Notes: a model not told the origin generated them from the letters alone. 64,000 nucleotides of DNA from a virus (IMGVR_UViG_3300045988_149282:32001-96000); one strand, 5' to 3'; positions 1 through 60,525 are shown, counted from the first letter of the stretch. Numbers and translations are program-made.

Positions 1-3000
1 CTGGCCTGATCTATCAGGAGAAAAATGCTCGTATCACCGCCGATGCTGCGGAAGCGAGTGCGCGTGAATCCCTGCAGACTGAATTCAACAGAAACAAAGC
101 CTCTGTTGCAGAAGAGCTGCATACGCTGTCCACTGAACAAGCTTCCCAGGCAAGCAAGATTACCGGGTTGCAAACAAGCCTTGGCCAGAAGGCCGATGCC
201 AGTGCAGTACAGACAATTTCCCAGAAGGTTGAAGAGCAGGGCAACACCCTTAAATCACAAGGTGCGGCATTGTCTACGCTGGATAATCGCGTAGGAAGTG
301 TTGAGTCTGGTGTATCTGCGAATAGCAAGGCGATCACGGGTCTGCAGTCGACCGTAACCCAGCAGGATAAAACCCTTAGCAGCCAGAGTGAAAGCATCAC
401 CACCCTGAATAACTCGCTGAGCGATATCCAGAGCGATACCGATACTGCCAAAAGCAACCCGAGTAATTTGCTGGTTAACGCCTCCTTTGAGCGTGACCTG
501 GCAGGGTGGTCTGCAGGGAACAGCGTATCCAATGTTATCAAAGCGAGCGCGCCCCATTCTGGTAGCAAAATTCTTGTTTGCGCCGCTGGCACGGTGCAAA
601 TCACGCAATCTGTAAGCGTCGTCGAAGGGCGGACATACAAGCTGTCCTCTTTTGTGCGGTGCACCACTGATGCGGTGATCAGCAGCCCTGGCAACAACAA
701 ACTGCGTATTGGCGCGGCTACGTTGCTCAAAGAGATTCCGATCCGTCCGGAGAATCTGCCCAAAGATGAAACATGGAAGGAGGTCTCTGATACCTGGAAG
801 GCGACGCTGACCGGTAAAGTTGACGTATCGATCATGTCTTCTCTCAAAACCGGTTCTCAGTACTTCGATGATGTTGGTTTTGTTGACGTCACTGATGCTC
901 TGGCGATTGAGGCGAACGCCAGTGCCACCAATGCTTTGACCTCTCGGGTATCGTCTGTTGAGGGCACCATCACAAGTCAGGGGCAACAGATCACTTCGAT
1001 GCAGAACAGTATCAAGAACAAAGCTGACGCCTCAGCTGTGACTAATCTGGCAAACCGCGTAACTGCTGCCGAAAATCAGATCTCCAGCCAGTCCCAGAGC
1101 ATCACCAGCCTGTCAAATTCGCTGGATAACGCCAATGCTGATGCGGATGCCTCGAAAGCGATCATCGGCAACATGCTCAAAAACAACTCTTTTGAACGTG
1201 GTTTCGAAGGTTGGGAGTATGTTGGTTGGACTCTGCTGGAGGCCCAAAACCCCAAATCGGGGAAATACATCATCCAGGCGGGCAAACTGGCCTCTGGCGG
1301 TGACTCGGGCTGCAACCAAACGATCGAGCTGCAGGCTGGCAAGACTTATCGTATCGGCGCATGGGTTCGCAAATCCGCTGACTTCGCGATTAATAATGCC
1401 GGCAACAACAAAATTAGCCTTCGAAACGCAGATCTTACGCCAATAAAGGATATCCCGATCACTGGCGCCGGGCTGTCGACGAACTGGGCGCTTATTAGCG
1501 GCGAGTATACGCCAGCCAAAACCGCGAGCGTGGTTGTGTCTCTGCGCGCAAGTGTCGCTTCAGGCTATATGTATCTCGATGACGTCTTCTGCGTTGACGT
1601 GAGCAATGAGAAAGCGATTGATGCGACGTCCAATGCGTTATCAACCCTCAACAGCACCGTGACCCAGCAGGGAAAAGACATTACGTCTAACTCCAACAGC
1701 ATCACTTCGCTGTCAAACCAGATGGTTAACGGCCGCCAGAACATGTGGGTGCGTAGCGTATACAACGTACAACTGGCGAACAATACCACTGAGCCGACCT
1801 TTAGCGATATCAACGGTAAGGCGCCAATCTCGATCGATGAGGTTCCTGACGCGGCAAAACTGGACTTTGCGAGCGCCGGCAGTTACGTGATCGCGCATTA
1901 CAAAGCCTTCGTGAAAGTCAATGCTGATACCACCATCACTATGGCACCAGGGTCTCGTGTTTTTGATGATACGGGCGCCGTGTACGTGAACGGTGTTAGG
2001 GTTGCCTTTGGTAATGCGAGCTGGAATACGGTTAGCTTTGATCTGAAAGCTGGCTGGAGCACGGTTGAGTTCTTGGTGAACCAATGGACTGGTCAGGCTT
2101 ACATTAACCTCGGCTTTAAACTGTCCGAGAAGGTAGCCCAGCTGAATTCTGCTCTTGGGATGAACGCGCTTTCGAATGCCATTAGCGCCGTCACCTCAAA
2201 CGTCAGCACCGTAGGTGATCGCGTCACGAGCACCTCGCAGAGCGTTACTGATCTGCGAAACAGCCTCGAACAGACCAACGCTAATCTGGCGAATAAGGCA
2301 GATGCACAGGCGCTGTCTACGCTGCAAAATACGGTCTCCAAGCAGGGGGATACGATTTCCAGCCAGGGTAACAGCATCACGAACCTGAATAACACCCTGA
2401 CCGCTGCCAGAAACTCCGGTGACAACCTGATCCCGAACTACGATTTCCTGCAGGGTGCAACTGCGTGGGATATCCAGTATCCGGCGGGCGTCGCTTTCGG
2501 CAACTTCGGTGATGGTAAGGCTGGGGTTAAACTGAACCGGACGACCACTACCAGCCCAGGCATCTTCTCCAACAACAACAAGCCGCTGCCGCTTAATGGT
2601 CAGCGCAAATATCGTGTTGTGGTTAAAGCCAAGGGCGTGTCCGGGGCGATGAACATGTTGATCCGGCGCCAGAACAAAATCGGCCAGACCGACAGCAATT
2701 ATGAAGATAAAAACGTCACACTCACCAGTGAGTGGCAGACCATTACCTGGGAAACTGGGCTTACTGCCTCTAACGCTGATGGTCAGAACTTTAAGCTTTA
2801 TGCGCACCCGGCTAATGCCGAAATCTGGGTTGATACCTTTAAGGTCTTTGATATCACGGATGAGGTGAAGATCAAGGCTAATAGCGATGCGCTGTCTACG
2901 TTGTCGAGCACGGTGACACAGCAGGGTGACAAGATCACCAGCCAGGGCAACAGCATCACTAAGTTGACCAATGACCTCGAGGCCGCTGACGCAAACATCG

Positions 3001-6000
3001 CGAAAAAGGCCGATCAGTCGGCAGTCACTACGCTGACAGGTCGGGTAGAGAAGACGGAGTCCGGTCTGACGGCGGCGAACAGCAACATTACGTCGCTTAG
3101 CAGCTCTCTGAGCCAGCAATCCAAACGCGGCGCTAATCTGCTTCCTGATGGCACTTTTGAAAGCTACGCGGTTGGCCATAATCTATCAAATAATCGCGTT
3201 ATCGTTACCACTGATGACTCTCACGGTGGAAATAAGTGCATCCGTGTGACGCGTCCGAACGACTACAACGCCAACGCAACAGATAACAGCGATAACCATA
3301 TTTTTAGCGGATTTCAGGTTCGCGATAACGCAGTGTTCTACATGGAGTGCTGGGTTAAGCTGGATGCCAATAGCACAGCCATGGCCGAGAACACGCAGAT
3401 CTCTATCGGTTTGTCGCTCCAGTATCAGGATAACTCGTGGCAGTGGCCGGCAGTAACTAAAGCTGCGAAAGATCTGTCTACAGCTCAATGGACGAAGGTT
3501 TCTGGTTACCTGAAATCAACGAAGAGCGGTATTAAGCAGGCAATGGTGAGGATTTCTATTCCTAACGTTAGCAGCGTTAAGGCGGGAAACTCATTCCTTA
3601 TTGATGACCTGGTCATTACCGAAGTAACTGATGCCTACAATGCGCAAAGTACAGCAGATGCTAACGCCAATGCGATTTCGACACTGGACTCGACCGTTTC
3701 CCAACAGGGCGACCAGATCACCAGTCAGGGTAACAGCATCACCAAACTGACAAATGACCTGGCAACGACCAATAACAACGTCAGTAAAAAAGCGGATCAG
3801 AGCGCTTTAAGCGTGTTGTCCGGGCGCGTCGATCAAACAGAATCGGGCTTATCCTCTGCGAATAGCAGTATCACTGCGCTTAATTCATCTGTACGCGCAG
3901 GGAATGCGACAAGTGGCGATTTGATTAGCAACCCGACATTTGACCCAGAGTTTAGTCAGATGGGCTTCACTGTGGTTCCCAGCTCGTCTGAGGGCGTGCC
4001 AGCCAATTGCCCATACGCTTATGTTGCACGCATTGCGGCTCGCGACCATCACCCAAATTTTGCTGCTATTCCGGCGACATTGGGGGATGTCTATGAAATG
4101 TCTGCTCTCGTCGCGTGTGGCACTGGCTCCGCTGATTTCAACCTGTATCTCGGAACCGCAACACGGCCAAGCGGCAGCGTGGGCGCGCCTCTGTCATCTG
4201 GCGGCAACCGCAAGGCGTCGGCCACATGGCAGCGAGTAACCTGGCGTTTCAAAATTACTCAGGGGATTGTCGATCGCGGCTTCTTCCGTCCATTCCTGCA
4301 AATCAACCAGTCCAGCCCGTTCGGCACCGTCTGGTATGTGACCGACTGGCATCTGCGGAACGTAACCGACTCCTCCAAAGTTCAGGATTCTCTCGATGCT
4401 ACGGCGAAAGCGGTTGATTCGCTGACCTCTACGGTAAATCAGCAGGGGGAGAATATCTCCAGCATTGGTACACGTACTACCAATCTTGAGAATAATTTGA
4501 GAACAACAAATGCAAACGTTGCTCAAAAAGCGGACGCCAATGCTCTGACGGCACTGACCAACCGTGTTACCCAGACCGAAAAAGACATTAACTCAACGAG
4601 TTCTTCTGTCACGAATCTGAACAACAAGGTTGATGCAATTTCTGTCGGCGGTACAAACCTGATCAAGAACTCCGGCGATATGACCGGCTGGTCGAACGTT
4701 GTCAGCGATACGTATCGTGGTAACGCGGTAATTGGCGCAACTGTAAAAGCCGGCTCCGGTTACAGGGATTTGCGGGAAATCACGCTTGAGTCGCCGGTCG
4801 ATGCAGGTGAGTACGTTTACAGCTTCTATGCGAAAGGCGGTGTTGCTGGCCAGATTATGACGGCGTTCTTCTACAATCCGAACACTACAACGTCTATCGA
4901 GACCAGCCAGGGTGCGAAGGGTAACAACAGTGATGGCCGTGCGCAGTTCACGCTGACCACTTCATGGGCCCGCTATTGGGTTAAGTGGAAACAGACACCT
5001 ACCACGAGTACCAAGCGCCTGATTCTGTGTCGTATCGAGAGCAATACCTCCAAAGACCAGACGGTGTACATCAACAGTCCGAAGTTTGAGGTAGGTAACG
5101 TTGTTTCCGACTGGAACGAGTCTCCGTCTGATAGTGCCAGTGCGTCGGCTGTGGACTCGCTGACAACGAAAGTGAATCAGCAGGGCACTTCCATTAGCTC
5201 TATCGGAAATCGCACCACATCGTTGGAAAACGGGTTATCGACAGCTCAAAACAACATTGCCAAGAAGGCTGATGCTTCTGCATTGCAGGATCTCCGGAAC
5301 ACGGTGACATCTCAGGGTGATGATTTAACCGCGGCGAACAGCAGCATTACCAGCCTGCATGCCTCGATGAACCGTCGCACTGTGTTTACTGTCACTGCAC
5401 GGGGTAATGGCAACAGCGTTACCCATGGGGTGTTTGATGAAAGCGGCAAGAATCTGTTTACCCCTGGTCGCAGCTGGGCGCTGGTCACTTTTGCAAAACA
5501 CAGCGACGGATCAACGGTGATTGCGACCTCCAAAACATACGATGTCTTTGGCAGCGCGAATAATGGCGCCACGATGTCGGCTGATATCGAGGCACTGGCC
5601 AGTGGGACTTACGTTTGCGTCCTGACATTCGATGAGCCAACTGGCAACCGAGGTAAGGTGTTGTCTGCCCTGGAATCTCTTGGTGGCACTTCCGAAGTCG
5701 TTAACTCTCTGCCGTATCGTGGCGCCTACATTCTCCTTGGCCGCAAAGGTATGAAGCCGGGCGATGGTCTGGAACTGCGTGCGCCAACCGGTGGCGACGG
5801 CACCGCCCACATTTCGACCTCAGTCGAGTTTGTGAACGGGGTAATGATGGGGCTGGGCGCCGCTGGTGGTGTGATGATGAAGGCTGATGCGAACGCATCT
5901 GCAATTACCACGCTCCAGAATACAGTGAAGACCCAAGGGGATAATATTGACTCCCTGAGCTCCTCGACAACAGCGCTGGAAAACAGCCTTGCGTCCAGTA

Positions 6001-8456
6001 ACGCCAGCGTGGATGCAGCAAGCCAGATCCCCGGTAACCTGATCGTAAACCCGTCTTTTGAGCGTGGTACGGAGGGCTACACTGGTTGGAGCGGTATTGC
6101 CACGGTGGCAACGCTGCAGGTTCCACATCTTGGCACCAAAGCCGCCAAACTAGCGGCGGGTGGTTCTGCAGGCGTGGGCCAGAAGATCTCCTTCAAAAAG
6201 GATCGGTCGTACAAAATTGGTATTTGGGCAAAGCAGGACCCTAATACCACCATTCAGTCGACCGACAACACAAAATTCCGTGTGGCTGACGGTACTGGCC
6301 TGATTGCAAGTAAGGTTTATGGTCCGTTCACCTCGAACTGGCAGGAGGTGTCATGGACATGGAAGGCGACAAAGGATGTCCTTGCTGACGTTCAGTTCAC
6401 TGCTTTCTTGTCAGCCGGCGCGATGTACTTTGATGATTTTTACGTCGTCGATGTGACCGACTCAGTTGAAACTCAGGCGAACTCGAGTGCGATCACGAAG
6501 CTCGATAGTCGTGTGACCAAGACAGAGAATGACATCACCAGCCAGGGCAGCCAGGTTACGCAACTTAAGAATGACCTTGCTACCACAAACACAAATGTTT
6601 CGAAGAAAGCGGATGCAGCTGCGTTAACGGCATTAACGAACCGCGTCACGCAGAATGAGAAAGAAATTGGAACCCAGAGCAGCCAGACAACTTCGCTCAA
6701 AAACTCTTTGAGCACTGTTCAGGCAATGGGAAGCAACCCGTGGTTTGATGGTTCTCTGGAGACGTACTCCGAAAACCAGCAGATCAGCGGCTCGCGCGCG
6801 GTCGTCGTCAGCTCTCAGAAACGAAGCGGAACGAAGTCGTTGCGTGTTTCCCGCGGCGCCGGTGAGGGCGGAAACAGCGATAAAACCATCGGTAAGTGGA
6901 TTGCTCTGCGTGAAAATGCGGTATTCCGCATTGAACTCTGGGCGATGATGCCGGCAGATCAGTCGCCATCATCCGGGTGGTCAACGCTCGTTGGTTTGCA
7001 GACCCAAAACGCTGCCAACAACAATAACTGGCCGACGGCAATCACTATCAATGAAGCCGCATTGGGTGCAAGAGGCGCATGGAAGAAATTCACCGGTACG
7101 CTCCGTGTAGCCGCTGGCCACACTCGCGGCGCATTTTGGGTATCTACCCGCGGCACAACTGGCACTGGTACACCGGGGTATGATCTGTATATCGATGACG
7201 TTGTTGTCACCGATATCACCGACGCAAAAGAGGCTCAAGATTCGGCTAATTCGAACGCATCCGCGCTCACCAGCCTTACCTCACGTGTTACCAATGTAGA
7301 AGGGCAGGTGACATCCCAGGCGTCTCAGCTGTCCTCTTTGACGTCCCAGGTGAATGATGCGTCTTCGAAGGTTGATCAGATGGCGCAAACCATCACCAAC
7401 AACGAGAAAACGCAGTCGTCGCTGAATACCAGCTTGCAGTCGCAAATTGATGCGCAGGCATCGGCAAACATCAAGAACCAGACGGAGTTGAATAACGCCA
7501 CCACTTCGATGGCGGCAATTAAATCAACTCAGCAGACTCAGGCCACAACGATTAGTGCACTGTCTCAGCAGCAAACGAATTTAACGGCCCAGGTAGGAGG
7601 CCAGTCAGCCGAGCTGCAGGAGCTGAAGAAAACGGTTGTTGAAAACGGCAACGTTAACAGCACCTGGATGGTCAAAATGGAAACCAACAGCAACGGTAAA
7701 AAGTATGCTGCTGGTATAGCTTTAGGTATCGATGGCAAAAATTTGCAGAGCCAGTTTCTGGTTCAGACTGATCGCTTCGGCTTAATCAACACCTCTAACG
7801 GGAATACGACTACACCTTTCGTTATCGAAAATGGCGTTGCGTATATTAATGCCGCTGTCATTAAAGATGGCTCGATCACCAATGCGAAAATTGGAGGCGA
7901 AATCCGTTCTGACAATTTCGTTAATGGTTCAAATGGCTGGAGAATTGGAAAAGACGGTAGTTCACAGTTCAACAATGCGATATTCAGAGGTCATATTGAA
8001 GCGCGCAGTGGTACGTTCAAAGGAACCCTGGAAGCTCAAAACTTTATTGGTGATATCGCTGTAGCTCGGCGTTATGCGGGTTTATCGTTCCGTCGTAACA
8101 ACACCGTACAGCGTGATGGTCGTTACCAGAACCGCGGATACGGTATGACTATTGTGCTAAGTTGCACCCTGATATATCAGGTTACTGGGGGGAATGAGGA
8201 TCGTAACGGTTATATTGTTGAAATGACATTTAACGTTGGCGGTCAGGAGGCAACTCGCAGTTTCCCGATCAACCCGCGAATGAATATGGGCTCCTACTCG
8301 ATGGAGTTTCGTTTTGCAGCGGATATTCCAGGCAACTATGACAACGTCCCGTTCTTTGTAAGAGCACGTGGTCGGGATGCTACTTGGAACTACCAGTGTT
8401 ATGTAGAAAACATCACTGCCACTGCTTTCCGTACAAACAGCAACTCATTCAGCTAA
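1..8456 (+). CDS. Giant tail fiber protein, 5' end probably outside the window; coiled-coil segments alternating with carbohydrate-binding-module-like domains
   Basis: Single reading frame ending at TAA 8454-8456 and still open back to nt 3 with the same repeat pattern. About 8 recurrences of heptad-like A/S/T/Q-rich stretches followed by an N-x-S-F-E-R-G-x-E-G-W type signature. C-terminal fiber-tip-like region. Confidence 0.8.
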   Translation, partial: GLIYQEKNARITADAAEASARESLQTEFNRNKASVAEELHTLSTEQASQASKITGLQTSLGQKADASAVQTISQKVEEQGNTLKSQGAALSTLDNRVGSVESGVSANSKAITGLQSTVTQQDKTLSSQSESITTLNNSLSDIQSDTDTAKSNPSNLLVNASFERDLAGWSAGNSVSNVIKASAPHSGSKILVCAAGTVQITQSVSVVEGRTYKLSSFVRCTTDAVISSPGNNKLRIGAATLLKEIPIRPENLPKDETWKEVSDTWKATLTGKVDVSIMSSLKTGSQYFDDVGFVDVTDALAIEANASATNALTSRVSSVEGTITSQGQQITSMQNSIKNKADASAVTNLANRVTAAENQISSQSQSITSLSNSLDNANADADASKAIIGNMLKNNSFERGFEGWEYVGWTLLEAQNPKSGKYIIQAGKLASGGDSGCNQTIELQAGKTYRIGAWVRKSADFAINNAGNNKISLRNADLTPIKDIPITGAGLSTNWALISGEYTPAKTASVVVSLRASVASGYMYLDDVFCVDVSNEKAIDATSNALSTLNSTVTQQGKDITSNSNSITSLSNQMVNGRQNMWVRSVYNVQLANNTTEPTFSDINGKAPISIDEVPDAAKLDFASAGSYVIAHYKAFVKVNADTTITMAPGSRVFDDTGAVYVNGVRVAFGNASWNTVSFDLKAGWSTVEFLVNQWTGQAYINLGFKLSEKVAQLNSALGMNALSNAISAVTSNVSTVGDRVTSTSQSVTDLRNSLEQTNANLANKADAQALSTLQNTVSKQGDTISSQGNSITNLNNTLTAARNSGDNLIPNYDFLQGATAWDIQYPAGVAFGNFGDGKAGVKLNRTTTTSPGIFSNNNKPLPLNGQRKYRVVVKAKGVSGAMNMLIRRQNKIGQTDSNYEDKNVTLTSEWQTITWETGLTASNADGQNFKLYAHPANAEIWVDTFKVFDITDEVKIKANSDALSTLSSTVTQQGDKITSQGNSITKLTNDLEAADANIAKKADQSAVTTLTGRVEKTESGLTAANSNITSLSSSLSQQSKRGANLLPDGTFESYAVGHNLSNNRVIVTTDDSHGGNKCIRVTRPNDYNANATDNSDNHIFSGFQVRDNAVFYMECWVKLDANSTAMAENTQISIGLSLQYQDNSWQWPAVTKAAKDLSTAQWTKVSGYLKSTKSGIKQAMVRISIPNVSSVKAGNSFLIDDLVITEVTDAYNAQSTADANANAISTLDSTVSQQGDQITSQGNSITKLTNDLATTNNNVSKKADQSALSVLSGRVDQTESGLSSANSSITALNSSVRAGNATSGDLISNPTFDPEFSQMGFTVVPSSSEGVPANCPYAYVARIAARDHHPNFAAIPATLGDVYEMSALVACGTGSADFNLYLGTATRPSGSVGAPLSSGGNRKASATWQRVTWRFKITQGIVDRGFFRPFLQINQSSPFGTVWYVTDWHLRNVTDSSKVQDSLDATAKAVDSLTSTVNQQGENISSIGTRTTNLENNLRTTNANVAQKADANALTALTNRVTQTEKDINSTSSSVTNLNNKVDAISVGGTNLIKNSGDMTGWSNVVSDTYRGNAVIGATVKAGSGYRDLREITLESPVDAGEYVYSFYAKGGVAGQIMTAFFYNPNTTTSIETSQGAKGNNSDGRAQFTLTTSWARYWVKWKQTPTTSTKRLILCRIESNTSKDQTVYINSPKFEVGNVVSDWNESPSDSASASAVDSLTTKVNQQGTSISSIGNRTTSLENGLSTAQNNIAKKADASALQDLRNTVTSQGDDLTAANSSITSLHASMNRRTVFTVTARGNGNSVTHGVFDESGKNLFTPGRSWALVTFAKHSDGSTVIATSKTYDVFGSANNGATMSADIEALASGTYVCVLTFDEPTGNRGKVLSALESLGGTSEVVNSLPYRGAYILLGRKGMKPGDGLELRAPTGGDGTAHISTSVEFVNGVMMGLGAAGGVMMKADANASAITTLQNTVKTQGDNIDSLSSSTTALENSLASSNASVDAASQIPGNLIVNPSFERGTEGYTGWSGIATVATLQVPHLGTKAAKLAAGGSAGVGQKISFKKDRSYKIGIWAKQDPNTTIQSTDNTKFRVADGTGLIASKVYGPFTSNWQEVSWTWKATKDVLADVQFTAFLSAGAMYFDDFYVVDVTDSVETQANSSAITKLDSRVTKTENDITSQGSQVTQLKNDLATTNTNVSKKADAAALTALTNRVTQNEKEIGTQSSQTTSLKNSLSTVQAMGSNPWFDGSLETYSENQQISGSRAVVVSSQKRSGTKSLRVSRGAGEGGNSDKTIGKWIALRENAVFRIELWAMMPADQSPSSGWSTLVGLQTQNAANNNNWPTAITINEAALGARGAWKKFTGTLRVAAGHTRGAFWVSTRGTTGTGTPGYDLYIDDVVVTDITDAKEAQDSANSNASALTSLTSRVTNVEGQVTSQASQLSSLTSQVNDASSKVDQMAQTITNNEKTQSSLNTSLQSQIDAQASANIKNQTELNNATTSMAAIKSTQQTQATTISALSQQQTNLTAQVGGQSAELQELKKTVVENGNVNSTWMVKMETNSNGKKYAAGIALGIDGKNLQSQFLVQTDRFGLINTSNGNTTTPFVIENGVAYINAAVIKDGSITNAKIGGEIRSDNFVNGSNGWRIGKDGSSQFNNAIFRGHIEARSGTFKGTLEAQNFIGDIAVARRYAGLSFRRNNTVQRDGRYQNRGYGMTIVLSCTLIYQVTGGNEDRNGYIVEMTFNVGGQEATRSFPINPRMNMGSYSMEFRFAADIPGNYDNVPFFVRARGRDATWNYQCYVENITATAFRTNSNSFS

Positions 8457-12915: not shown

Positions 12916-12993
12916 TTATTAAGCCCACCTATGTACCTATCATTAAACCTTTACACCGCAGCCGTAGGCATTTAGGCTATATCACATATAAGA

Positions 12994-13006
12994 AAACAAG
13001 TTGTTT
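12994..13006. promoter_or_regulatory. AAACAA-N-TTGTTT palindromic site upstream of parA-like gene
   Basis: Perfect 6+1+6 palindrome; same motif recurs upstream of at least five other genes. Confidence 0.45.
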
Positions 13007-13041
13007 CAGACGATAATTATATACGCAAAGGGAACTCTCCA

Positions 13042-13710
13042 ATGACCAAGATCTTTGTGGTTGGCGGCACAAAGGGCGGGCCTGGCAAATCCACCGTTGC
13101 CCAGCAAATTGCCGTTTGCCTGAAAGTCAAAAAGAAGAAGAAGGTTTATATTACCGATATAGATATTCAGCGCACGACAACGAGCTGGTGTGAAGACCGT
13201 CGACAGAACGAAGACCTTGAGCTGATTCCTTTTGCATACGTTCAGGATGACATCATTAAGCACCTAAAATCGCTTCAGGGTAGAGCTGAGTTTGTAGTGG
13301 TAGATGCTGGTGGCTTCGACTCCGAAATTCAGCGACAAGCGATGCTGATGGCTGACGTTATCATTATCCCGCTGCGTCCTAAGCGTCGTGATTTGAAATC
13401 TTTACGTGACATCGATCCTATTATCGACAATGTTCGCAATGTAAACGATAAAGTGAAGGTCCGCGCGGTCATGAACCAGTGCCCGGCTTTGCCATCACAA
13501 GTGTCTCGCATTCTGGCGGCTAAAGAGATTGTTGAGACGTTTGGCATCGAGTCTGCGCCAGTCAATCTATATAACCGCAACGTCTATGATGATGCGGAAG
13601 AGTCTGGTCGCTCTATCTTTGAAATGACCGGTAGCGAGCGCGACAAAAAGGCGGAAGCCGAGTTTGAAGAATTTGTAGATTATCTGTTGAGTCTGGAGGA
13701 AGAAGAATAA
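13042..13710 (+). CDS. parA: ParA/ParF-type partition ATPase
   Basis: Deviant Walker A GGTKGGPGKST at N-terminus; 222 aa, small ParA class without N-terminal helix-turn-helix. Confidence 0.85.
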   Translation: MTKIFVVGGTKGGPGKSTVAQQIAVCLKVKKKKKVYITDIDIQRTTTSWCEDRRQNEDLELIPFAYVQDDIIKHLKSLQGRAEFVVVDAGGFDSEIQRQAMLMADVIIIPLRPKRRDLKSLRDIDPIIDNVRNVNDKVKVRAVMNQCPALPSQVSRILAAKEIVETFGIESAPVNLYNRNVYDDAEESGRSIFEMTGSERDKKAEAEFEEFVDYLLSLEEEE

Positions 13711-14069
13711 TGTCCATGAAAATGGGTGACCTAGCAAAGCGCAAAGAGCCTGATGCACCGGCTAAGAACACAACTCCTTTGCGCCAACCAGTCAGACCAC
13801 AGGGACGCCCGACTCGTGGCAAAGAGAAAATTAAAAGCCGCACAATGTCACTGGAGGACGAATACTTCGAACTGCTGGAGATGATGAAGTTCATCCCTCG
13901 CTTCGAGAAGTTCACTCGTTCTGACGTGATTCGAGCAGCCATTTTCCATCTGGCAGAGAAGTCACCGCAGGAAATCGAGGACATCGTGAAATTGAATGAG
14001 GCGATCACCGCTGCCGATGTCACGATGCGTACCGATGAAATCAAACGAGAGTTGATGAAGAAAGGTTAA
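13710..14069 (+). CDS. Partition centromere-binding protein, ribbon-helix-helix (ParG-like)
   Basis: Start overlaps parA stop (TAATG); basic disordered N-terminus followed by a ribbon-helix-helix-like segment. Confidence 0.55.
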   Translation: MSMKMGDLAKRKEPDAPAKNTTPLRQPVRPQGRPTRGKEKIKSRTMSLEDEYFELLEMMKFIPRFEKFTRSDVIRAAIFHLAEKSPQEIEDIVKLNEAITAADVTMRTDEIKRELMKKG

Positions 14070-14074
14070 AAATC

Positions 14075-14105
14075 ATGCATTGGCGCGTACATTGCGCCAA
14101 TGCAT
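14075..14105. repeat. Perfect 12-bp inverted repeat ATGCATTGGCGC-N7-GCGCCAATGCAT between convergent genes
   Basis: Read directly; either a bidirectional terminator or a protein-binding site such as a partition centromere. Confidence 0.5.
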
Positions 14106-14121
14106 AACTACAGTGTCAGCT

Positions 14122-14889
14122 TTATGCCGCGCTAACACTATGTTCAGTCCTAACCACCCCAACCTTCACAAAAGGGCTACCGTAGCTTGGTGGCTTCTTG
14201 ATTAATTTGCCTACATACAGTTTTCTAATATGCTCATCGGCTATTCTGCCAACAAATTCATAACGTTTTGTGTCGGGGCCAAGAGCTATATCCCTTGTAA
14301 AGTACTGCTGAGAACCGGCTTTGACCCAGCATTCAATCTGATAAACTTCCATTATCAGCCCACCATATGTAGCGTAGGCATATTTGAGATTCTCGTCTCT
14401 TGGAACCTTTGCCCATACGCCACGCGTAGCTTCATATAATGCCAGAGCGGACATTCCTGACTTGTAGGTGCTGTTTAGCAGGAAGGCAAGACCGGCGTGC
14501 TCAGGAGCAATTTCAGTTTCCTCTTGCAGCACTAAGTGATGGTAGGCGTCCAGTGATATTCTGCCCATCATGGAACCACTTCCTCGTACCTTATTCGTAA
14601 GCTCTCCGACCCCCATAAGGTCGATGCATGTCGCCTCAACAAGTTTGGCTGTGGTTTCATCCATACCATGACGAAGTATATCTATGCCTAATTTTTTATT
14701 AGCCAAAAGTTCTTTGATCCGCATGGATTTGGGAGAGTCATCGGGATACTTGATGTGATCGAGACAACGAGTCGATTTGCCTTTTCCTATGTAAAACGGT
14801 CTTTTCATCTTGTCTTCTGTATCATAGAGACAGTAAACATAGTATTTAGCCTTATCCAATGATCTCGCGTATACCGATAAATCGTCCAT
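14122..14889 (-). CDS. GIY-YIG-like nuclease domain protein (homing-endonuclease-like or defence-type nuclease)
   Basis: N-terminal YVYCLYD...PFYIGKGKSTR matches the GIY-(10)-YIG-R signature; about 160 aa C-terminal domain of unknown type; antisense to flanking operons. Confidence 0.55.
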   Translation of the reverse strand: MDDLSVYARSLDKAKYYVYCLYDTEDKMKRPFYIGKGKSTRCLDHIKYPDDSPKSMRIKELLANKKLGIDILRHGMDETTAKLVEATCIDLMGVGELTNKVRGSGSMMGRISLDAYHHLVLQEETEIAPEHAGLAFLLNSTYKSGMSALALYEATRGVWAKVPRDENLKYAYATYGGLIMEVYQIECWVKAGSQQYFTRDIALGPDTKRYEFVGRIADEHIRKLYVGKLIKKPPSYGSPFVKVGVVRTEHSVSAA

Positions 14890-15000
14890 TATTGCATCTC
14901 TTTGCTACTGACTAATGCGTTCTATTTTACACATAAGTTTTTAATCAATTTAACAGGCTCAAAGTGTAGAGCTTCTGGGCGTCTAAGACGACAAGTTATG

Positions 15001-15055
15001 CCTGCTTCTGTATATATAAATAATAAGTAACTTATTAAATATATACGGAAGCAGG
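15001..15055. repeat. 55-bp composite palindromic element, copy 1 (CCTGCTTCTGTATATAT ... ATATATACGGAAGCAGG)
   Basis: About 17-bp arms around an AT-rich centre containing ATAAGTAACTTAT; a near-identical copy lies at about 60132-60188. Confidence 0.6.
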
Positions 15056-15171
15056 TCTTTTAAAAGACACCACCAGAACAACTCCCTTCCGTTTCCACTT
15101 CCAAAAACTGCCACCAGTCGCTATCATCCGCTCATTGTGATAAGTAAGTAACTACCTACCAGGTGAGCCAC

Positions 15172-15912
15172 ATGAGCCAAATCTTTTTCGATACCATCGA
15201 CAACGACCAGTACGACTTCATGACAGAGTGGAATACCGCTGTTATGGACAAGTGGGTCGCTGAAAACATTGGTTTGTCGCGCTGTAAAGACGAGGCTGAA
15301 CTCTTCGAGACGAAGTGGTTTGATTACCGCGACATGCATCCTCTCATGGCCACCTGTCTTTTTACGGAGGCATACAAACGTCAGTACTCAAATATCATGC
15401 TGACGCACGGTCGCGAACACTTTGAAACAGCTCCGTTCACCACCGGGTTAAAACGCCTGCCTTATCAGGAGTTGTCGACTGCCAATAAAACGTCGCTATG
15501 GAAAGCACGCCAGTTTGCGGATCGCTATTGCTGCTCATACGACTACTTTATCTCCACCGTTCTTTCCGCAGCTGCACGACGGCTGTGGGACAAGCTGCCG
15601 CGCCCACAGCATTTATGGCAGCCAGAACTGATTGAGATATTTGAAGAGAAATTAGCCAGACGCGCAACAACCCGTCTGGATGACTCTCTGGTTAGCTTTA
15701 AGCATATGGGAGACATGCAGTTCAACCCGATTCAGGAAAGCTATTTTGAGTGGATTCTGGAGCGTTTGCGCACCATCCCTCGCAGCAAGCGCATACGCGC
15801 AATTTTCTCCGCTATCTGGCTAATGGAAATCGTTCCAGAGCGCCTTATTTCCGCCCACTTTCCAGAAGAACTGGAAGAAGCACGGCGGTTTATTGATCCC
15901 CTATCTAATTAA
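15172..15912 (+). CDS. Hypothetical protein
   Basis: AGGTGA ribosome-binding site then ATG 15172 (ORF track opens at GTG 15163); no motif recognised; upstream of helicase. Confidence 0.55.
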   Translation: MSQIFFDTIDNDQYDFMTEWNTAVMDKWVAENIGLSRCKDEAELFETKWFDYRDMHPLMATCLFTEAYKRQYSNIMLTHGREHFETAPFTTGLKRLPYQELSTANKTSLWKARQFADRYCCSYDYFISTVLSAAARRLWDKLPRPQHLWQPELIEIFEEKLARRATTRLDDSLVSFKHMGDMQFNPIQESYFEWILERLRTIPRSKRIRAIFSAIWLMEIVPERLISAHFPEELEEARRFIDPLSN

Positions 15913-15923
15913 CTAATACTAGA

Positions 15924-15936
15924 AAACAATTTGTTT
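15924..15936. promoter_or_regulatory. AAACAA-T-TTGTTT palindromic site upstream of helicase gene
   Basis: Perfect palindrome 20 nt upstream of the conserved AAAGGAAAGCAC-ATG leader. Confidence 0.45.
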
Positions 15937-15955
15937 AAAAAACAAAGGAAAGCAC

Positions 15956-22863: not shown

Positions 22864-22938
22864 GATGGTGTAGCTCAGCGGTAGAGCAGTTGGCTGTTAA
22901 CCAACTGGTCGGTGGTTCGAATCCACCCACCATCGCCA
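22864..22938 (+). tRNA. tRNA-Asn (anticodon GTT)
   Basis: Manual cloverleaf: acceptor GATGGTG/CACCATC, D-arm GCTC-AGCGGTA-GAGC, anticodon loop CTGTTAA, T-arm GGTGG-TTCGAAT-CCACC, encoded CCA. Confidence 0.85.
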
Positions 22939-22943
22939 ATTTA

Positions 22944-23030
22944 GGGGAGTTAGTCCGTAGAGGTAGCGGTGTAGACTGTAAATCTACTGTCATGGCGACT
23001 CGGGTGGTTCGACTCCATCACTCCCCACCA
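22944..23030 (+). tRNA. tRNA-Tyr (anticodon GTA), long variable arm
   Basis: Acceptor GGGGAGT/ACTCCCC, anticodon stem-loop GTAGA-CTGTAAA-TCTAC, long variable arm, T-loop TTCGACT, encoded CCA. Confidence 0.8.
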
Positions 23031-23034
23031 AATT

Positions 23035-23110
23035 GCCGGTTTAGCTCAGTTGGTAGAGCGCCTGCCTTGTAAGCAGGATGTCAGCGGTTCGAGTCCGTTA
23101 ACCGGCACCA
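23035..23110 (+). tRNA. tRNA-Thr (anticodon TGT)
   Basis: Acceptor GCCGGTT/AACCGGC, D-arm GCTC-AGTTGGTA-GAGC, anticodon loop CTTGTAA, T-loop TTCGAGT, encoded CCA. Confidence 0.8.
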
Positions 23111-40918: not shown

Positions 40919-40938
40919 TCGCAATTATCTTATTAAGA

Positions 40939-40951
40939 AAACAATTTGTTT
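40939..40951. promoter_or_regulatory. AAACAA-T-TTGTTT palindromic site
   Basis: Perfect palindrome 17 nt upstream of ATG 40968. Confidence 0.45.
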
Positions 40952-40967
40952 AAAAGGATAAGAAAAC

Positions 40968-42534: not shown

Positions 42535-43067
42535 ACCGCTGACAGCATACACAATCAACTACCGCTGATAGCATATCGAGAGTCTATCTCACCGCTCACA
42601 GCATACTTTACTCGATTTTTTACCGCTGACAGCATACTTAAGAAATTGCATGAATAATGTGTCCCGGTATGGGTATAACCAGAACAAAATTACCGCTGGC
42701 AGCATACGAATGTCTGACATATACCATTAATTACCGCTGATAGCATATCCAAACAAAAATTCCTCAATAAAACACCGCTGACAGCATACGTTCTATCAGG
42801 GAGTAGCAGGCAATAAATGCCTTTCACTACAAGCAATCAGCGCAATAGCAATAGAATGTTAGTGAGCGCAAACCTATATGGAATGCACTCTTCGAGGTTA
42901 GTAACCACTGGGGAGGTATGACAGAGCATTGAGTGGTGATAGATGATTTACCGCTCACAGCATACGTTCATCTCACTATACCGCTGGTAGCATATCTTTA
43001 ACCGTTCACAGCATACTTTTCAGAAAAATAGCCGCTGATAGCATACATTTCACCGCTGACAGCATAT
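42535..43067. repeat. Iteron array, about 12 copies of ACCGCTGACAGCATAC (control locus downstream of repA)
   Basis: Copies start at about 42535, 42561, 42591, 42622, 42692, 42733, 42774, 42950, 42980, 43001, 43030, 43052, with point variants (GATAGCATAT, CTCACAGC, CTGGCAGC). Confidence 0.8.
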
Positions 43068-44161
43068 CAAAGCAGTTTGAGACTATTGGAAAGGATCTCA
43101 ATCATCTTGATATTTTCAGGCGTCAAATTCTGCGAAAGTTCGGTTATCTTGTTGATAATGTTCTGTTTGGCATCAATTTCCCCAGCTTTCTCATCTGGTT
43201 TTTTGGGTTCGATGTCTTCAGGTTTTGGCGGTGCGACTTTGAGTTTTGGATTGCGGCTGTGAATCTGGATATAGATCGACCGCCCACGCTTAATCTCGCT
43301 GTATTCGAGATAGCCCAAATCTTGGAGAGCTTTTAAGCCGTTACGTATAGTCTGATTCTGCGAGCTGACATTCCTGCTACTCAAATTGAGTCGCGCACGC
43401 AATCGAGCAAGCGATACCGGCGCAGGCTTGGTAGGAAGACTTTCGATGAAGGTGTACAGAGCCTGTGCTGTTTCTTTGCGTGGTAGCTTATTGATAACCT
43501 TTAACTGCAAAAGAACCTTATGGTCAAAGCGATATAGTTCGGCCAGCTTCGGTTCTGCATAGAACACCACCGTATCTTTCTGCTCGTTGTAGTCCACGCT
43601 ATTGATGAGGTGCACCATCAGAAGCGAGATCTTGTTAGAGCCGTCGACGTTCTTTTCTTCATACGTTCTCTGGAAAGACAGAGTTGTACGCATGATCTTC
43701 AAAAGACTGTTTGTAAGCCGGTCGCGGAGTGTTTTGCGGATCTGTGACGATGGATAGCCACAAAACTTAGCAAATTTCGTGATGCTTAACTCGACACGAC
43801 CGTTAGGTTCGCCGTATTCTGCCAGCGAACGCACAACGCCCACCCACGTTTTGAAATCATGATCCATGTCGAGACGAGGACCGGTTATCTTGATATCGGA
43901 ATAGCCTTCAGAACGGGCTACTTCGAGCTGGACAAGCTCCTTTGAAGCATCAATCTCATTTGGCTTGTTACGTTTACTGTATTTTGTTCCCTTAAGCGTG
44001 GGGACGAACAACCCCAGTCGCATCAACGCAATTGGTTGGACTGTATTGTTGCTATTAGGGACAAGTTCCCCTGTGTACAATTCAAGGGAACCTTCTTCAA
44101 AGTTGTCGATGTTATCTTCTACTTCTTTGTTATTTTTACCTTTTTTATTTTTTGTGGACAT
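43067..44161 (-). CDS. repA: Plasmid-type replication initiator RepA (iteron-binding)
   Basis: Antisense ORF flanked on both sides by the same iteron; start set at M41 of the ORF-track product (AAAGGTG ribosome-binding site); basic N-terminus and winged-helix-like segments. Family assignment rests on context. Confidence 0.65.
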   Translation of the reverse strand: MSTKNKKGKNNKEVEDNIDNFEEGSLELYTGELVPNSNNTVQPIALMRLGLFVPTLKGTKYSKRNKPNEIDASKELVQLEVARSEGYSDIKITGPRLDMDHDFKTWVGVVRSLAEYGEPNGRVELSITKFAKFCGYPSSQIRKTLRDRLTNSLLKIMRTTLSFQRTYEEKNVDGSNKISLLMVHLINSVDYNEQKDTVVFYAEPKLAELYRFDHKVLLQLKVINKLPRKETAQALYTFIESLPTKPAPVSLARLRARLNLSSRNVSSQNQTIRNGLKALQDLGYLEYSEIKRGRSIYIQIHSRNPKLKVAPPKPEDIEPKKPDEKAGEIDAKQNIINKITELSQNLTPENIKMIEILSNSLKLL

Positions 44162-44181
44162 GTGGACACCTTTGTCATTCA

Positions 44182-44283
44182 ACCGCTGACAGCATACTTG
44201 ATTTGCCGCTGACAGAATACCAAAAACAGTTGGCAGCATACGGTGAACCGCTGACAGACTATCAATTACCGCTGACAGCATAC
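44182..44283. repeat. Origin iterons (5 copies at about 21-bp phasing) upstream of repA
   Basis: Copies start at about 44182, 44205, 44231 (partial), 44247, 44268; spacing near two helical turns. Confidence 0.75.
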
Positions 44284-59515: not shown

Positions 59516-60109
59516 ATGATTGCAGCCGAAAAAATCAAACAGCGAAAGCGCGACAACTCTCTTCGTGACCTCTGGAGAACACCTGACTGGCTGTTTTCTG
59601 CCATTCAACGTTATCTTGGAGTGACATTTGATGTTGACGTTGCCTGCAACAAGGACAATGCAAAGCTGCCTAATTTCATAGGCGTTGAGCGTGATGCTTT
59701 GAAATCTGAATGGGGACAGCCAGGTACAATTGCCTTCCTCAATCCACCCTACTCCAAAATCTACCCCTGGATTGATGCGGCTATACGTGAGCAGGCTCGC
59801 GGAGTTACAACAGTGATGCTAATTCCTCAATCCCTCGATACAAAGTGGTATGAGCGTGCAACAGAGTGTGCGAATGAGACGATTATTCTGTCTGGTGGCC
59901 GCGTAGCGTTTGTCGAGCCTGACGTAAATCTGGGTCAGGTAGAAGTAAACATCAACCCAGGTGGCAGTATGCTCGTTGTTTTTCGAGGATTCTGTCAGGA
60001 CGCTGGGCACTCTATAAGCAAGATCCCTTTGGACGTCATGAAAAGTCTGGGAGGGTATGATCCTGCGAATGTGATCAGGAAAAAAAGACCATCAAAGAAG
60101 GCTGCTTAG
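59516..60109 (+). CDS. DNA N6-adenine methyltransferase (phage Dam-like)
   Basis: Catalytic NPPY motif (AFLNPPYS); N-terminal RTPDWLFSAI segment; 197 aa. Confidence 0.75.
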   Translation: MIAAEKIKQRKRDNSLRDLWRTPDWLFSAIQRYLGVTFDVDVACNKDNAKLPNFIGVERDALKSEWGQPGTIAFLNPPYSKIYPWIDAAIREQARGVTTVMLIPQSLDTKWYERATECANETIILSGGRVAFVEPDVNLGQVEVNINPGGSMLVVFRGFCQDAGHSISKIPLDVMKSLGGYDPANVIRKKRPSKKAA

Positions 60110-60131
60110 TTTGTTCTGGTGTCTGTAATTA

Positions 60132-60188
60132 GCCTGCTTCTGTATATATAAATAACTACATATTAATTATTAATATACGGAAGAAGGC
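60132..60188. repeat. 55-bp composite palindromic element, copy 2 (GCCTGCTTCTGTATATAT ... ATATACGGAAGAAGGC)
   Basis: Near-identical to the copy at 15001-15055; downstream of the methyltransferase gene. Confidence 0.6.
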
Positions 60189-60294
60189 TGTTTTGTATCA
60201 GAGACTCCAGACCTGAACATCACTACAGAATCCACTAGAACCCCTTCCCAGACGCTTTAAAATCGATTTTATGAACCACTTTAAGGAAACCAAC

Positions 60295-60525
60295 ATGTCA
60301 TACCCGACTAATGTCGTTGCGCTCGTAGAGAGCGATTTTCTGGCCCAGGCTCGTGAAATGATGAAAGATCGTGAGCAGGCTTTCAACTTGTACGAATGGG
60401 CAATTAAGTGCTTGCATCTTGGCGAGCATCGCGAACTTGTTGAACAGCTTTTAGGTGAGTTGATCAATGAGGTGTTTGCCTTGAATGTTCAACTACATGG
60501 TAGAGAAAATAATCAATCACAATGA
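60295..60525 (+). CDS. Hypothetical small protein (76 aa)
   Basis: AAGGAAACC ribosome-binding site then ATG 60295 (ORF-track start 60271 lies upstream in frame). Confidence 0.45.
   Translation: MSYPTNVVALVESDFLAQAREMMKDREQAFNLYEWAIKCLHLGEHRELVEQLLGELINEVFALNVQLHGRENNQSQ

What the first reader, a model, noticed from the sequence alone, without database searches (positions are those of the whole stretch)
15001..15055. Two near-identical 55-bp palindromic elements about 45 kb apart
CCTGCTTCTGTATATATAAATAA...ATATATACGGAAGCAGG at about 15001-15055 and a close copy at about 60132-60188 (arms about 17 bp, AT-rich centre). Each lies at the boundary of a candidate accessory gene: the GIY-YIG gene, and the acidic-protein/methyltransferase pair. 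They could be bidirectional terminators, protein-binding sites, or recombination sites that delimit exchangeable cassettes.
Basis: seen in the sequence. Interest (0 to 1): 0.45.

Follow-up and report, generated by a model that had tools for sequence, protein, structure and literature searches.

The report
Three-copy boundary hairpin of SSU5-type phage-plasmids
The two palindromes are real and are two of three copies of an undescribed element that marks operon boundaries in SSU5/pHCM2-type phage-plasmids, most likely working as a transcription stop, though some conserved features go beyond what a simple terminator needs.

Summary
The 55-nt AT-rich palindromes lie at 15001-15055 and 60133-60187; their arms are identical and their centres differ. 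The window is an SSU5-like E. coli phage-plasmid. Each genome carries exactly three copies, all oriented with transcription; the third lies upstream of terS, outside the window. Each copy starts just after the last gene of a long rightward gene block and sits about 110 nt before the next operon. Each is a composite: an outer box (TCTGGGAG), the inner palindrome, then the inverted outer box. The element occurs in about 800 plasmids and 12 phage records of this family only. The best reading is a boundary terminator or insulator hairpin. Public RNA-seq of the 98%-identical Cyrano lysogen shows a 60- to 200-fold expression drop across site 1. Several features remain unexplained. Site 3 has no U-tract. 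Arms and outer boxes changed together at all sites in distant clades. Moellerella has solitary half-sites, and one Klebsiella clade keeps only one arm. These features leave room for an unknown binding factor. The cassette idea holds only for the left side of site 1, an accessory-gene hotspot with at least 12 variants. The acidic-protein/methyltransferase pair is core, not accessory.

The parts
15001..15055 (+). Inner 55-nt AT-rich palindrome, copy 1 (family site 1, between the par/accessory block and the replication operon).
   Evidence: nhmmer 87 bits forward against 60 bits reverse.
14973..14979 (+). Left outer box of copy 1 (TTCTGGG, a variant of the family motif (G/T)TCTGGGAG).
15056..15061 (+). 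T-tract TCTTTT directly after the hairpin of copy 1.
   Evidence: It is conserved at site 1 in SSU5, Cyrano, PhiR41 and Moellerella.
15071..15079 (+). Right outer box of copy 1 (CACCAGAAC, the inverted partner of the left box).
60133..60187 (+). Inner 55-nt palindrome, copy 2 (family site 2), starting 24 nt after the stop codon of the Dam-type methyltransferase gene.
60114..60119 (+). Left outer box of copy 2 (TTCTGG), 5 nt after the methyltransferase stop codon.
60188..60195 (+). U-rich tail CTGTTTTG after copy 2.
   Evidence: SSU5 has CTTTTT and Klebsiella has CTTTTCC at the same place.
60205..60213 (+). Right outer box of copy 2 (CTCCAGACC).
13042..14069 (+). parA (13042-13710) and the 119-aa parB-like gene (13710-14069). 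In relatives with an empty slot, the site-1 element begins 31 nt after this operon's stop codon.
14122..14889 (-). LEM-3-like GIY-YIG gene, one of at least 9 alternative gene contents (at least 12 left-flank classes) of the variable slot between parB and the site-1 element.
15172..15912 (+). First gene of the replication operon (246 aa, followed by the DnaB-like helicase and primase). It starts 117 nt after copy 1 and is silent in the Cyrano lysogen.
59516..60109 (+). Dam-type N6-adenine methyltransferase, the last gene before copy 2. It is a core gene, not accessory.
60271..60525 (+). 84-aa ORF, the first gene after copy 2. It is conserved in all relatives examined.

Best explanation
The two palindromes are sites 1 and 2 of a three-site family of module-boundary elements specific to SSU5/pHCM2/pMT1-type phage-plasmids. 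Nearly all genes are transcribed rightward. Each element starts 0-10 nt after the stop codon of the last gene of a block: par plus accessory genes, replication and nucleotide metabolism ending in Dam, and the regulatory/ParB-like block ending in an 88-aa ORF. Each element ends about 110-120 nt before the first gene of the next, separately regulated operon: replication, orf84 to RNase H, and terS with the late genes. In the + strand RNA the inner palindrome folds into a roughly 25-bp hairpin with a GC-rich base. At sites 1 and 2 a U-tract follows, so RNA polymerase terminates. This insulates silent lytic operons from operons that are expressed in the plasmid state. Shown here: the anatomy, the copy number, the orientation, the conservation, and a near-complete loss of transcript across site 1 in a lysogen of a 98%-identical relative. 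Inferred: that the hairpin itself causes the stop; that sites 2 and 3 act in the same way; and that the extra conserved boxes only modulate this function, for example by extending the hairpin in read-through RNA or by binding a factor.
For: Exactly three copies per genome in SSU5 and CMS-2020a, all in the direction of transcription, with forward scores consistently above reverse scores. The position just after a co-directional stop codon is conserved in E. coli, Salmonella, Klebsiella, Kluyvera, Yersinia and Moellerella. The hairpins are strong on the + strand. T-tracts are conserved across genera at site 1 and site 2. In LF82 lysogen RNA-seq (PMC9928086, supplementary file 2, sheet 'Cyrano prophage'), parA, the parB-like gene and CYRAN_30 give 50, 89 and 55 normalised counts, while CYRAN_31, just after site 1, gives 6.2, at or below the background median of 9.8. 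The log2 difference is 5.9-7.7 in four other conditions. In that 193-nt gap the element is the only strong hairpin, and the consensus scan finds no other terminator-like site. The central nucleotide takes all four bases, and the interior can be flipped without loss of the element (L149), as expected for a hairpin loop. Arms that diverged in Moellerella remain mutually complementary.
Against: Site 3 has a poor U-tract in most lineages, as do Moellerella sites 2 and 3 and hvKP859 site 1. A 25-bp AT-rich stem is atypical for an intrinsic terminator, the consensus scan does not call it, and other gene ends in the window carry ordinary, unique GC-rich hairpins. The arms are almost invariant, so there is little true covariation: one compensatory pair among 33 variants within the main clade. 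Outer boxes lie beyond the U-tract, where a terminated RNA would not reach. Arms and outer boxes changed together at all sites in Moellerella, which also has three solitary half-sites that cannot form the hairpin. The hvKP859 clade keeps the right arm at three sites while the left arm decays or is missing. In this window, copy 1 follows a minus-strand gene, so it has no co-directional gene to terminate. The RNA-seq evidence is at gene level, from a relative, and informative for one site only.
Confidence: 0.5

Rival explanations
1. The elements are DNA binding sites for a protein encoded by the phage-plasmid family. Each half-site is bipartite, with an outer box and an inner arm, and is usually paired in inverted orientation around an AT-rich spacer. 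The function would be a dispersed centromere or silencer, as in phage-plasmid N15, whose dispersed centromere palindromes lie in lytic-gene regions (own knowledge, not tested here), or another regulatory or roadblock role. Site 1 sits where P1 and F place their centromeres, directly after parB.
For: The arm and outer-box sequences are conserved rather than merely complementary. Lineage-specific versions are shared by all sites of a genome: Moellerella has CCTAGCTCCCATA with CCGCNG, and hvKP859 has GAGCCAGG. Moellerella has three solitary intergenic half-sites that keep the bipartite layout. The hvKP859 clade keeps one arm at all three sites without hairpin potential at site 2. The interior varies in length (23-125 nt) and can flip. 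In the empty-slot state, site 1 begins 31 nt after the parB-like stop codon. The parA and parB-like genes are expressed in the lysogen.
Against: No candidate binding protein was identified. The parB-like protein looks like a small ribbon-helix-helix type, which usually binds short tandem repeats upstream of parA (own knowledge). The larger ParB-family proteins CYRAN_119 and CYRAN_120 are silent in the lysogen. Gene conversion between sites is demonstrated (E. coli site 1 is 100% identical to site 3) and could alone explain changes shared between sites. This model does not explain the conserved orientation or the T-tracts.
Confidence: 0.22
2. The elements are lytic replication origins. An AT-rich unwinding region is clamped by inverted initiator-binding boxes, as in the palindromic oriS and oriL of herpes simplex virus, which also has three origins per genome (own knowledge). 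They would be used by the phage's own helicase, primase and Pol III alpha replisome.
For: The architecture is an AT-rich centre of variable length between inverted conserved boxes. There are three dispersed copies in a 103-108-kb genome. Site 1 lies directly upstream of the replication operon. The arms changed together across sites, as expected for co-evolution with an initiator. The plasmid origin (RepA with iterons at 42546-44286) is separate.
Against: No initiator is known. Cumulative GC and AT skew show no inflection at the elements, although strand bias from transcription dominates the skew. An origin does not require the conserved orientation, the T-tracts or the position immediately after a stop codon.
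Confidence: 0.1
3. The element is an RNA processing or retroregulation site, like lambda tI/sib (own knowledge). Transcripts that stop at the inner hairpin are stable. Read-through transcripts also contain the right outer box, which pairs with the left outer box to extend the duplex into an RNase III substrate. Cleavage would then separate the super-operons and control the stability of the upstream message.
For: The inner stem is about 25 bp, enough for RNase III. The outer boxes are inverted repeats placed so that only read-through RNA contains both. Many individual sequences fold into a 100-120-nt extended hairpin; in SSU5 site 2 the lower stem is 11 bp and perfect. Same-locus flanks pair somewhat better than shuffled flanks, -20.5 against -13.0 kcal/mol.
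Against: Same-locus flank pairing is barely better than cross-locus pairing (-20.5 against -16.8, sd 5.3), so the signal comes from the shared motif and not from locus-specific covariation. Solitary half-sites and the one-armed copies in hvKP859 cannot form the structure.
Confidence: 0.08
4. The primary role of the elements is recombination: portable homology, or specific sites, that delimit exchangeable gene cassettes. This is the first reader's third option and resembles T4-type PeSL cassettes or integron attC sites.
For: The left side of site 1 has at least 12 unrelated flank classes, with genes on either strand. For most relatives, homology starts at window 15000/15001. Several unrelated cassettes bring their own TTCTGG-like box. 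There is gene conversion between sites and flipping of the interior. The genome encodes exonuclease and recombinase genes.
Against: Sites 2 and 3 have constant neighbours in every relative, and the right flank of site 1 is constant. The slot's left border is simply the parB stop codon, with no second element. There are only three copies, no promoter is detected in the element, and there is no integron-type integrase context. Junctions at terminators are expected from selection alone.
Confidence: 0.05
5. The elements are packaging (pac-like) sites recognised by the small terminase, with cleavage in the AT-rich centre.
For: Site 3 lies about 117 nt upstream of terS. The linear GenBank records of SSU5 and Cyrano are both cut inside the site-3 palindrome, 1 nt apart. 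TerL is of the T4-like family.
Against: The Cyrano record is a re-annotation of plasmid pLF82 and was probably oriented on SSU5. A hairpin or repeat is a natural assembly break. Two further copies lie far from terS. pMT1 keeps site 3 and the terminase genes, which is uninformative.
Confidence: 0.04

Closest known systems
Rho-independent (intrinsic) terminators, including lambda tI/sib
   Same: A hairpin with a GC-rich base is followed by a U-tract just after a stop codon, and transcript is lost across it. The outer inverted boxes could extend the stem only in read-through RNA, as at sib.
   Different: The stem is about 25 bp and mostly A/U. One sequence is reused three times per genome and conserved across genera. 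Outer boxes are conserved. One of the three sites lacks the U-tract. Half-sites exist in distant relatives.
PeSL (promoter-early stem-loop) cassette boundaries of T4-type phages (own knowledge: Arbiol et al. 2010)
   Same: A repeated intergenic stem-loop sits at the border of a hypervariable gene slot, with signs of recombination at the repeat.
   Different: No promoter is detected in the element. There are only three copies. Only one side of one site is variable. The phage family is unrelated.
Dispersed centromere palindromes of phage-plasmid N15 (own knowledge: Ravin and Lane 1999; Grigoriev and Lobocka 2001)
   Same: A few palindromes are dispersed over a phage-plasmid genome and lie in regulatory regions of lytic genes. 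One SSU5-type site is next to the par operon.
   Different: N15 sites are short SopB-binding repeats similar to F sopC. Here the arms are separated by 23-125 nt of AT-rich DNA, the par system is a small-ParA type, and no binding was tested.
REP/BIME elements of enterobacterial chromosomes
   Same: These are conserved imperfect palindromes in 3' untranslated intergenic regions that can stabilise or terminate transcripts.
   Different: REPs occur in hundreds of copies and are linked to RAYT transposases. This element has three fixed orthologous positions and no such gene.
Palindromic origins oriS/oriL of herpes simplex virus (own knowledge)
   Same: An AT-rich centre lies between inverted recognition boxes, with three copies per genome in intergenic positions.
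   Different: There is no evidence of initiation or of an initiator here. The HSV origins have no terminator-like context.

Membership tests
Intrinsic terminator | Stable RNA hairpin with G+C-rich base on the transcribed strand | tested here: met
   dG is -30.2 and -21.1 kcal/mol for the two copies, with z-scores of -8.95 and -4.3. The base of the stem is CCUGCUUC/GGAAGCAGG.
Intrinsic terminator | U-tract immediately 3' of the stem | tested here: inconclusive
   Site 1 has TCTTTT and site 2 has CTGTTTT or CTTTTT, both conserved. Site 3 has CTTCGT, CTCTCA or TTCTGA, which are poor.
Intrinsic terminator | Usual dimensions (stem 5-14 bp, loop 3-8 nt) | tested here: not met
   The stem is about 25 bp with internal loops, and the consensus scan does not call it.
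Intrinsic terminator | Loss of transcript across the site | tested here: met
   Shown at site 1 only, at gene level, in the relative Cyrano: 55 normalised counts fall to 6.2, and log2 drops by 5.9-7.7. Site 2 is uninformative, and site 3 shows a 2- to 3.5-fold drop at low expression.
PeSL-type mobile regulatory cassette boundary | Sigma-70 early promoter embedded next to the stem-loop | tested here: not met
   No promoter-like site is found on the + strand at either copy.
PeSL-type mobile regulatory cassette boundary | Many copies flanking variable ORF cassettes on both sides | tested here: not met
   There are three copies, and only the left flank of site 1 varies.
Partition centromere (parS) | Specific binding by the cognate centromere-binding protein, and plasmid stabilisation in cis | not testable with these tools
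   Only position is available: 31 nt after the parB-like stop codon in the empty state.
Partition centromere (parS) | Co-occurrence with the par operon outside this phage family | tested here: inconclusive
   Nearly all of the 797 plasmids with a parB-like homologue appear to be SSU5-type (about 100-115 kb, non-mobilizable). The one outlier examined, a 262-kb Klebsiella plasmid, carries only an unannotated fragment beside an IS5 transposase. No independent context was found.
REP/BIME | High copy number and association with a RAYT transposase | tested here: not met
   There are three copies per genome at orthologous positions.
Integron attC | R''/L''-L'/R' boxes (GTTRRRY core) and an IntI integrase acting on promoterless cassettes | tested here: not met
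   No GTTRRRY core is present at the ends. The cassettes include genes on either strand.
LexA (SOS) box | CTGT-N8-ACAG spacing | tested here: not met
   The arms contain CTGTATATAT and ATATACAG/ATATACGG, but about 33 nt apart. The motif is absent from the Moellerella arms.
RNase III processing site | At least 20 bp of double-stranded RNA | tested here: met
   This is a predicted structure only. Cleavage cannot be tested here.
Rfam families | Match to any curated RNA family | tested here: not met
   Only tRNAs reach the gathering score. At the element there are only chance hairpin hits with E of 0.14 or more.

The most novel reading that the evidence does not exclude
The three composite palindromes, and the solitary half-sites in distant relatives, are cis-sites for a still unidentified sequence-specific factor of SSU5-type phage-plasmids. 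That factor would couple the plasmid and lytic programmes. It could act through a dispersed centromere or silencer of the N15 kind, through a set of lytic origins, or through factor-controlled boundaries whose read-through is switched on at induction. The hairpin-terminator activity would be only one face of such a site.
Probability: 0.3. Interest if true: 0.7.

Novelty: new variant of a known kind. Interest (0 to 1): 0.42.

Why it matters
SSU5/pHCM2/pMT1-type phage-plasmids are common in clinical Klebsiella, E. coli, Salmonella, Enterobacter and Yersinia; about 800 PLSDB plasmids carry the element. Their regulation is almost unstudied. A fixed three-site boundary element gives a concrete handle on how the plasmid-state genes (par, toxin-antitoxin and accessory genes) are insulated from the replication and late operons. 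It also pinpoints the slot, between parB and site 1, where accessory genes are swapped. If the conserved boxes are bound by a factor, the sites would be an entry point to the plasmid-lytic switch, partition or lytic replication of this family.

Tried and rejected
- **Rfam** (gathering threshold on the window, E-value mode at the element): only tRNAs and chance miRNA-like hairpin hits.
- **Sigma-70 promoter inside the element**: none on the + strand. By-eye candidates for -35/-10 pairs were not consistent between sites.
- **T4 late-promoter motif TATAAATA and LexA half-boxes in the arms**: present in the main clade but absent from the Moellerella arms, and the LexA spacing is wrong. I treat both as coincidences of TA-rich sequence.
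- **Locus-specific pairing of the flanks** (cross-matrix of duplex energies): the diagonal is only slightly better than off-diagonal, so the signal is the shared box.
- **Strand asymmetry from G.U against C.A pairs**: weak, with mean dG of -21.5 against -20.9.
- **Cumulative GC/AT skew for origins**: monotonic and uninformative.
- **Similarity among the genes next to the three sites, PHROGs and Pfam for a candidate binding protein**: nothing found.
- **parB-like homologues outside the family**, to test co-occurrence with the element: no independent context found among the hits examined.
- **pMT1**: keeps only site 3, because the regions around sites 1 and 2 are missing. This is uninformative for the parS idea.
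- **Record ends of SSU5 and Cyrano inside site 3**: considered as evidence for cos/pac, but judged most likely an assembly or re-orientation effect.
- **Literature searches** for pHCM2, pMT1, SSU5 or Cyrano with palindrome, inverted repeat, terminator or hotspot: no description of the element. One preprint could not be opened.

Full report
**Observation.** The two palindromes exist. Copy 1 is at 15001-15055 and copy 2 at 60133-60187. The first 23 nt are identical, and this 23-mer has 2 matches in the window against 0.00 expected by chance. The right arms differ by one base. The AT-rich centres differ, so overall identity is about 87-89%. As + strand RNA the copies fold into long hairpins of -30.2 kcal/mol (z -8.95) and -21.1 kcal/mol (z -4.3). 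The minus-strand folds are somewhat weaker (-23.4 and -20.3), because arm position 9 is a T.G pair on the + strand. Neither relaxed pattern searches nor a profile search finds a further copy or a solitary arm in the window.

**What the window is.** The window is 99.3% identical to Escherichia phage CMS-2020a (CP053388.1, 107,648 bp, circular). It is related to Cyrano (pLF82), PhiR41_1, Salmonella phage SSU5 and Klebsiella phage-plasmids. Almost all genes are on the + strand.

**Copy number and position.**
- A profile built from 52 distinct instances finds exactly three copies in CMS-2020a and three in SSU5. All are in the same orientation, and the forward score always exceeds the reverse score.
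- The third copy lies outside the window, 22 nt after an 88-aa ORF and about 117 nt before terS. In the E. coli type it is 55/55 identical to copy 1, although the flanks are unrelated.
- Site 1 lies between the parA/parB-like operon (plus accessory genes) and the replication operon (246-aa ORF, DnaB-like helicase, primase).
- Site 2 lies between the Dam-type methyltransferase and an 84-aa ORF.
- Site 3 lies between the 88-aa ORF and terS.
- In the main clade each element ends about 108-119 nt before the next start codon.

**Anatomy.** Alignment of the instances shows a composite of about 100 nt. It reads, in order:
- the stop codon, then 0-10 nt;
- an outer box, (G/T)TCTGGGAG, then about 10-12 nt;
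- the inner palindrome, CCTGCTTCYGTATATA ... TAAGT-N-ACTTA ... TATATACRGAAGCAGG, then 12-28 nt;
- the inverted outer box, CTCCCAGAC.

Among 33 distinct inner sequences, arm positions 1-3, 7 and 10-12 are invariant. Position 9 is polymorphic (T.G 17, C-G 9, C.A 4, T-A 3), and only one pair shows a true compensatory change. The central nucleotide takes all four bases.

**Distribution.** The element occurs in 12 phage records, all SSU5-like. It occurs in 801 PLSDB plasmids of Klebsiella, Escherichia, Enterobacter, Yersinia, Salmonella, Citrobacter, Cronobacter and Shigella, almost all non-mobilizable and about 95-125 kb. It also occurs in Kluyvera, Buttiauxella and Yersinia pestis genome contigs; the other pattern hits there are chance palindromes. 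pMT1 keeps only site 3, because the regions around the other sites are absent. No Rfam family matches. I found no description in the literature I could search.

**Cassette question.**
- Homology of relatives to the site-1 region starts at window 15000/15001.
- In two relatives (L014, L051) the slot is empty and the inner palindrome begins 31 nt after the parB-like stop codon.
- Elsewhere the slot holds the LEM-3-like GIY-YIG gene (this window), DUF2971 genes on either strand, membrane-protein pairs, a 357-aa gene, a 193-aa plus 398-aa pair, or a lipoprotein-like gene. This gives at least 12 different left flanks.
- In SSU5 the insertion lies upstream of the retained outer box. In other cases the junction is at the edge of the inner palindrome, and the incoming DNA carries its own TTCTGG-like box.
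- Sites 2 and 3 always have the same neighbours. The acidic-protein/methyltransferase pair is core.
- So site 1 borders an accessory-gene hotspot, but the two window copies do not delimit a cassette.
- Recombination does act on the elements. E. coli site 1 has been converted to the site-3 sequence, and the interior of a Kluyvera copy is flipped (93% identity to the reverse complement against 84% forward).

**Function: evidence for a transcription stop.**
- Position, orientation, hairpin strength and the conserved T-tracts at site 1 (TCTTTT) and site 2 (CTGTTTT, CTTTTT) fit an intrinsic terminator.
- Independent support comes from published RNA-seq of the E. coli LF82 lysogen of Cyrano (PMC9928086, supplementary file 2).
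  - parA, the parB-like gene and the slot gene CYRAN_30 give 50, 89 and 55 normalised counts.
  - CYRAN_31, immediately after site 1, gives 6.2, against a background median of 9.8.
  - In four other conditions the log2 values fall by 5.9-7.7.
- In that 193-nt gap the element is the only strong hairpin, and no other terminator-like site is found.
- At site 2 both sides are silent in the lysogen. At site 3 there is only a 2- to 3.5-fold drop at low expression.

**Function: what a simple terminator does not explain.**
- Site 3 has no good U-tract.
- The stem is far longer than usual, and other gene ends in the window use ordinary, unique GC-rich hairpins.
- The outer boxes lie beyond the U-tract.
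- In Moellerella pW18-2-b all three sites have different arms (CCTAGCTCCCATA/TATGGGAGCTAGG), different outer boxes (CCGCNG/CNGCGG) and interiors of 60-125 nt.
- Moellerella also has three further intergenic solitary half-sites that keep the bipartite layout of box, spacer and arm.
- In the Klebsiella hvKP859 plasmid clade the right arm (ATATA[C/G][A/G]GAGCCAGG) is kept at all three sites. The left arm is degenerate at sites 1 and 3 and absent at site 2, and ordinary terminators sit beside sites 1 and 2.
- Flank-to-flank pairing is explained by the shared box, not by locus-specific covariation.
- These points fit recognition of the sequence by a trans-acting factor. Demonstrated gene conversion between sites could also account for much of the change shared between sites.

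**Verdict.** The best-supported mechanism is a family-specific boundary terminator or insulator hairpin that separates three super-operons (confidence about 0.5). The rivals are a protein-binding site (centromere, silencer or roadblock; 0.22), lytic origins (0.10), a sib-like RNase III site (0.08), a recombination site as the primary function (0.05) and a pac site (0.04). The element is not a member of the PeSL, REP/BIME, attC or LexA-box families, because defining features of each were tested and not met. I rate it a new variant of a known kind. It is moderately interesting, mainly because it is conserved at fixed positions in a large, clinically common and poorly understood plasmid-phage family, and because several of its features are not yet explained.

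Noticed in passing
window 18576, 22094, 25980, 36263, 39788, 41741, 45248, 54645, 59483 and 15139-15161: A second repeated motif of operator type, ATA(A/G)GTA-N6-TAC(C/T)TAT, lies 30-130 nt upstream of many + strand genes, including the methyltransferase and the first replication gene. It often overlaps -35/-10-like hexamers. It is a candidate operator of the prophage repressor. The centre of the site-1 element (AATAAGTAACTTATT) resembles its half-sites, but with different spacing.
   Followed up: partly
window 12982-13011, 15912-15941, 40927-40956, 52365-52394, 62585-62614, 63314-63343; also twice between site 3 and terS (L005 11440-11500): A third repeated palindrome, GAAAACAA-N-TTGTTT, is found upstream of parA, the DnaB-like gene and other operon starts, and in the terS leader in all clades. 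It is probably a regulator or promoter element.
   Followed up: no
L005 11415-11450 (minus strand), SSU5 record 90-125: A GC-rich hairpin (AGAGCGC-ATGGAC-GCGCTCT) followed by GTGTGTTTT lies about 15 nt before the terS ribosome-binding site and is conserved in SSU5. It looks like a leader terminator or attenuator of the late operon, which would suggest control by antitermination.
   Followed up: partly
window 42546-43070 and 44201-44286, flanking the minus-strand 404-aa gene at 43067-44281: Arrays of the iteron-like repeat ACCGCTGACAGCATA lie on both sides of the RepA-type gene. This is the presumed plasmid origin.
   Followed up: no
window 14071-14140: A strong GC-rich hairpin (ATGCATTGGCGCG...CGCGCCAATGCAT, -38 kcal/mol in a 70-nt window) lies between the convergent parB-like and GIY-YIG-like genes. 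In this genome it, rather than the site-1 element, ends the par operon.
   Followed up: partly
window 60526-61057 (ORF 60705-60839, hairpins 60576-60645): This stretch has no long ORF but has strong local structure. Its Cyrano counterpart, CYRAN_81, is among the most highly expressed loci of the lysogen (117 normalised counts against a background of 9.8). It may encode a small RNA or small protein expressed in the plasmid state.
   Followed up: partly
SSU5 NC_018843.1 positions 103299/1; Cyrano OV696614.1 positions 108379/1: Both linear GenBank records are cut inside the site-3 palindrome, 1 nt apart (…CTTATTA|AATATATACGG and …CTTATTAA|ATATATACGG). This is probably an assembly break at the hairpin, with Cyrano then oriented on SSU5. 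A real packaging terminus is not excluded.
   Followed up: partly
Moellerella pW18-2-b NZ_CP093251.1 positions 562, 26044, 51921 (and 83774 inside nrdA): The 13-mer arm CCTAGCTCCCATA occurs 8 times exactly and once with a single mismatch (at site 3) in 108 kb. Three of these copies are solitary intergenic half-sites, each with a CCGCNG box 21 nt upstream, and one copy lies inside the nrdA coding sequence.
   Followed up: partly
window 22864-23107: Three tandem tRNA genes (Rfam scores 75.5, 41.6 and 74.9 bits).
   Followed up: no
window 168-8456: A 2762-aa ORF with several internal direct-repeat families of about 100 nt (periods of about 580-780 nt). It is probably the tail or host-specificity protein.
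   Followed up: no
Cyrano RNA-seq table (PMC9928086, supplementary file 2): The two ParB-family genes upstream of site 3 (CYRAN_119 and CYRAN_120) are silent in the lysogen, whereas parA and the parB-like gene, two toxin-antitoxin pairs, RepA and CYRAN_43 are expressed. The ParB-family pair therefore belongs to the lytic programme, not to plasmid partition.
   Followed up: partly
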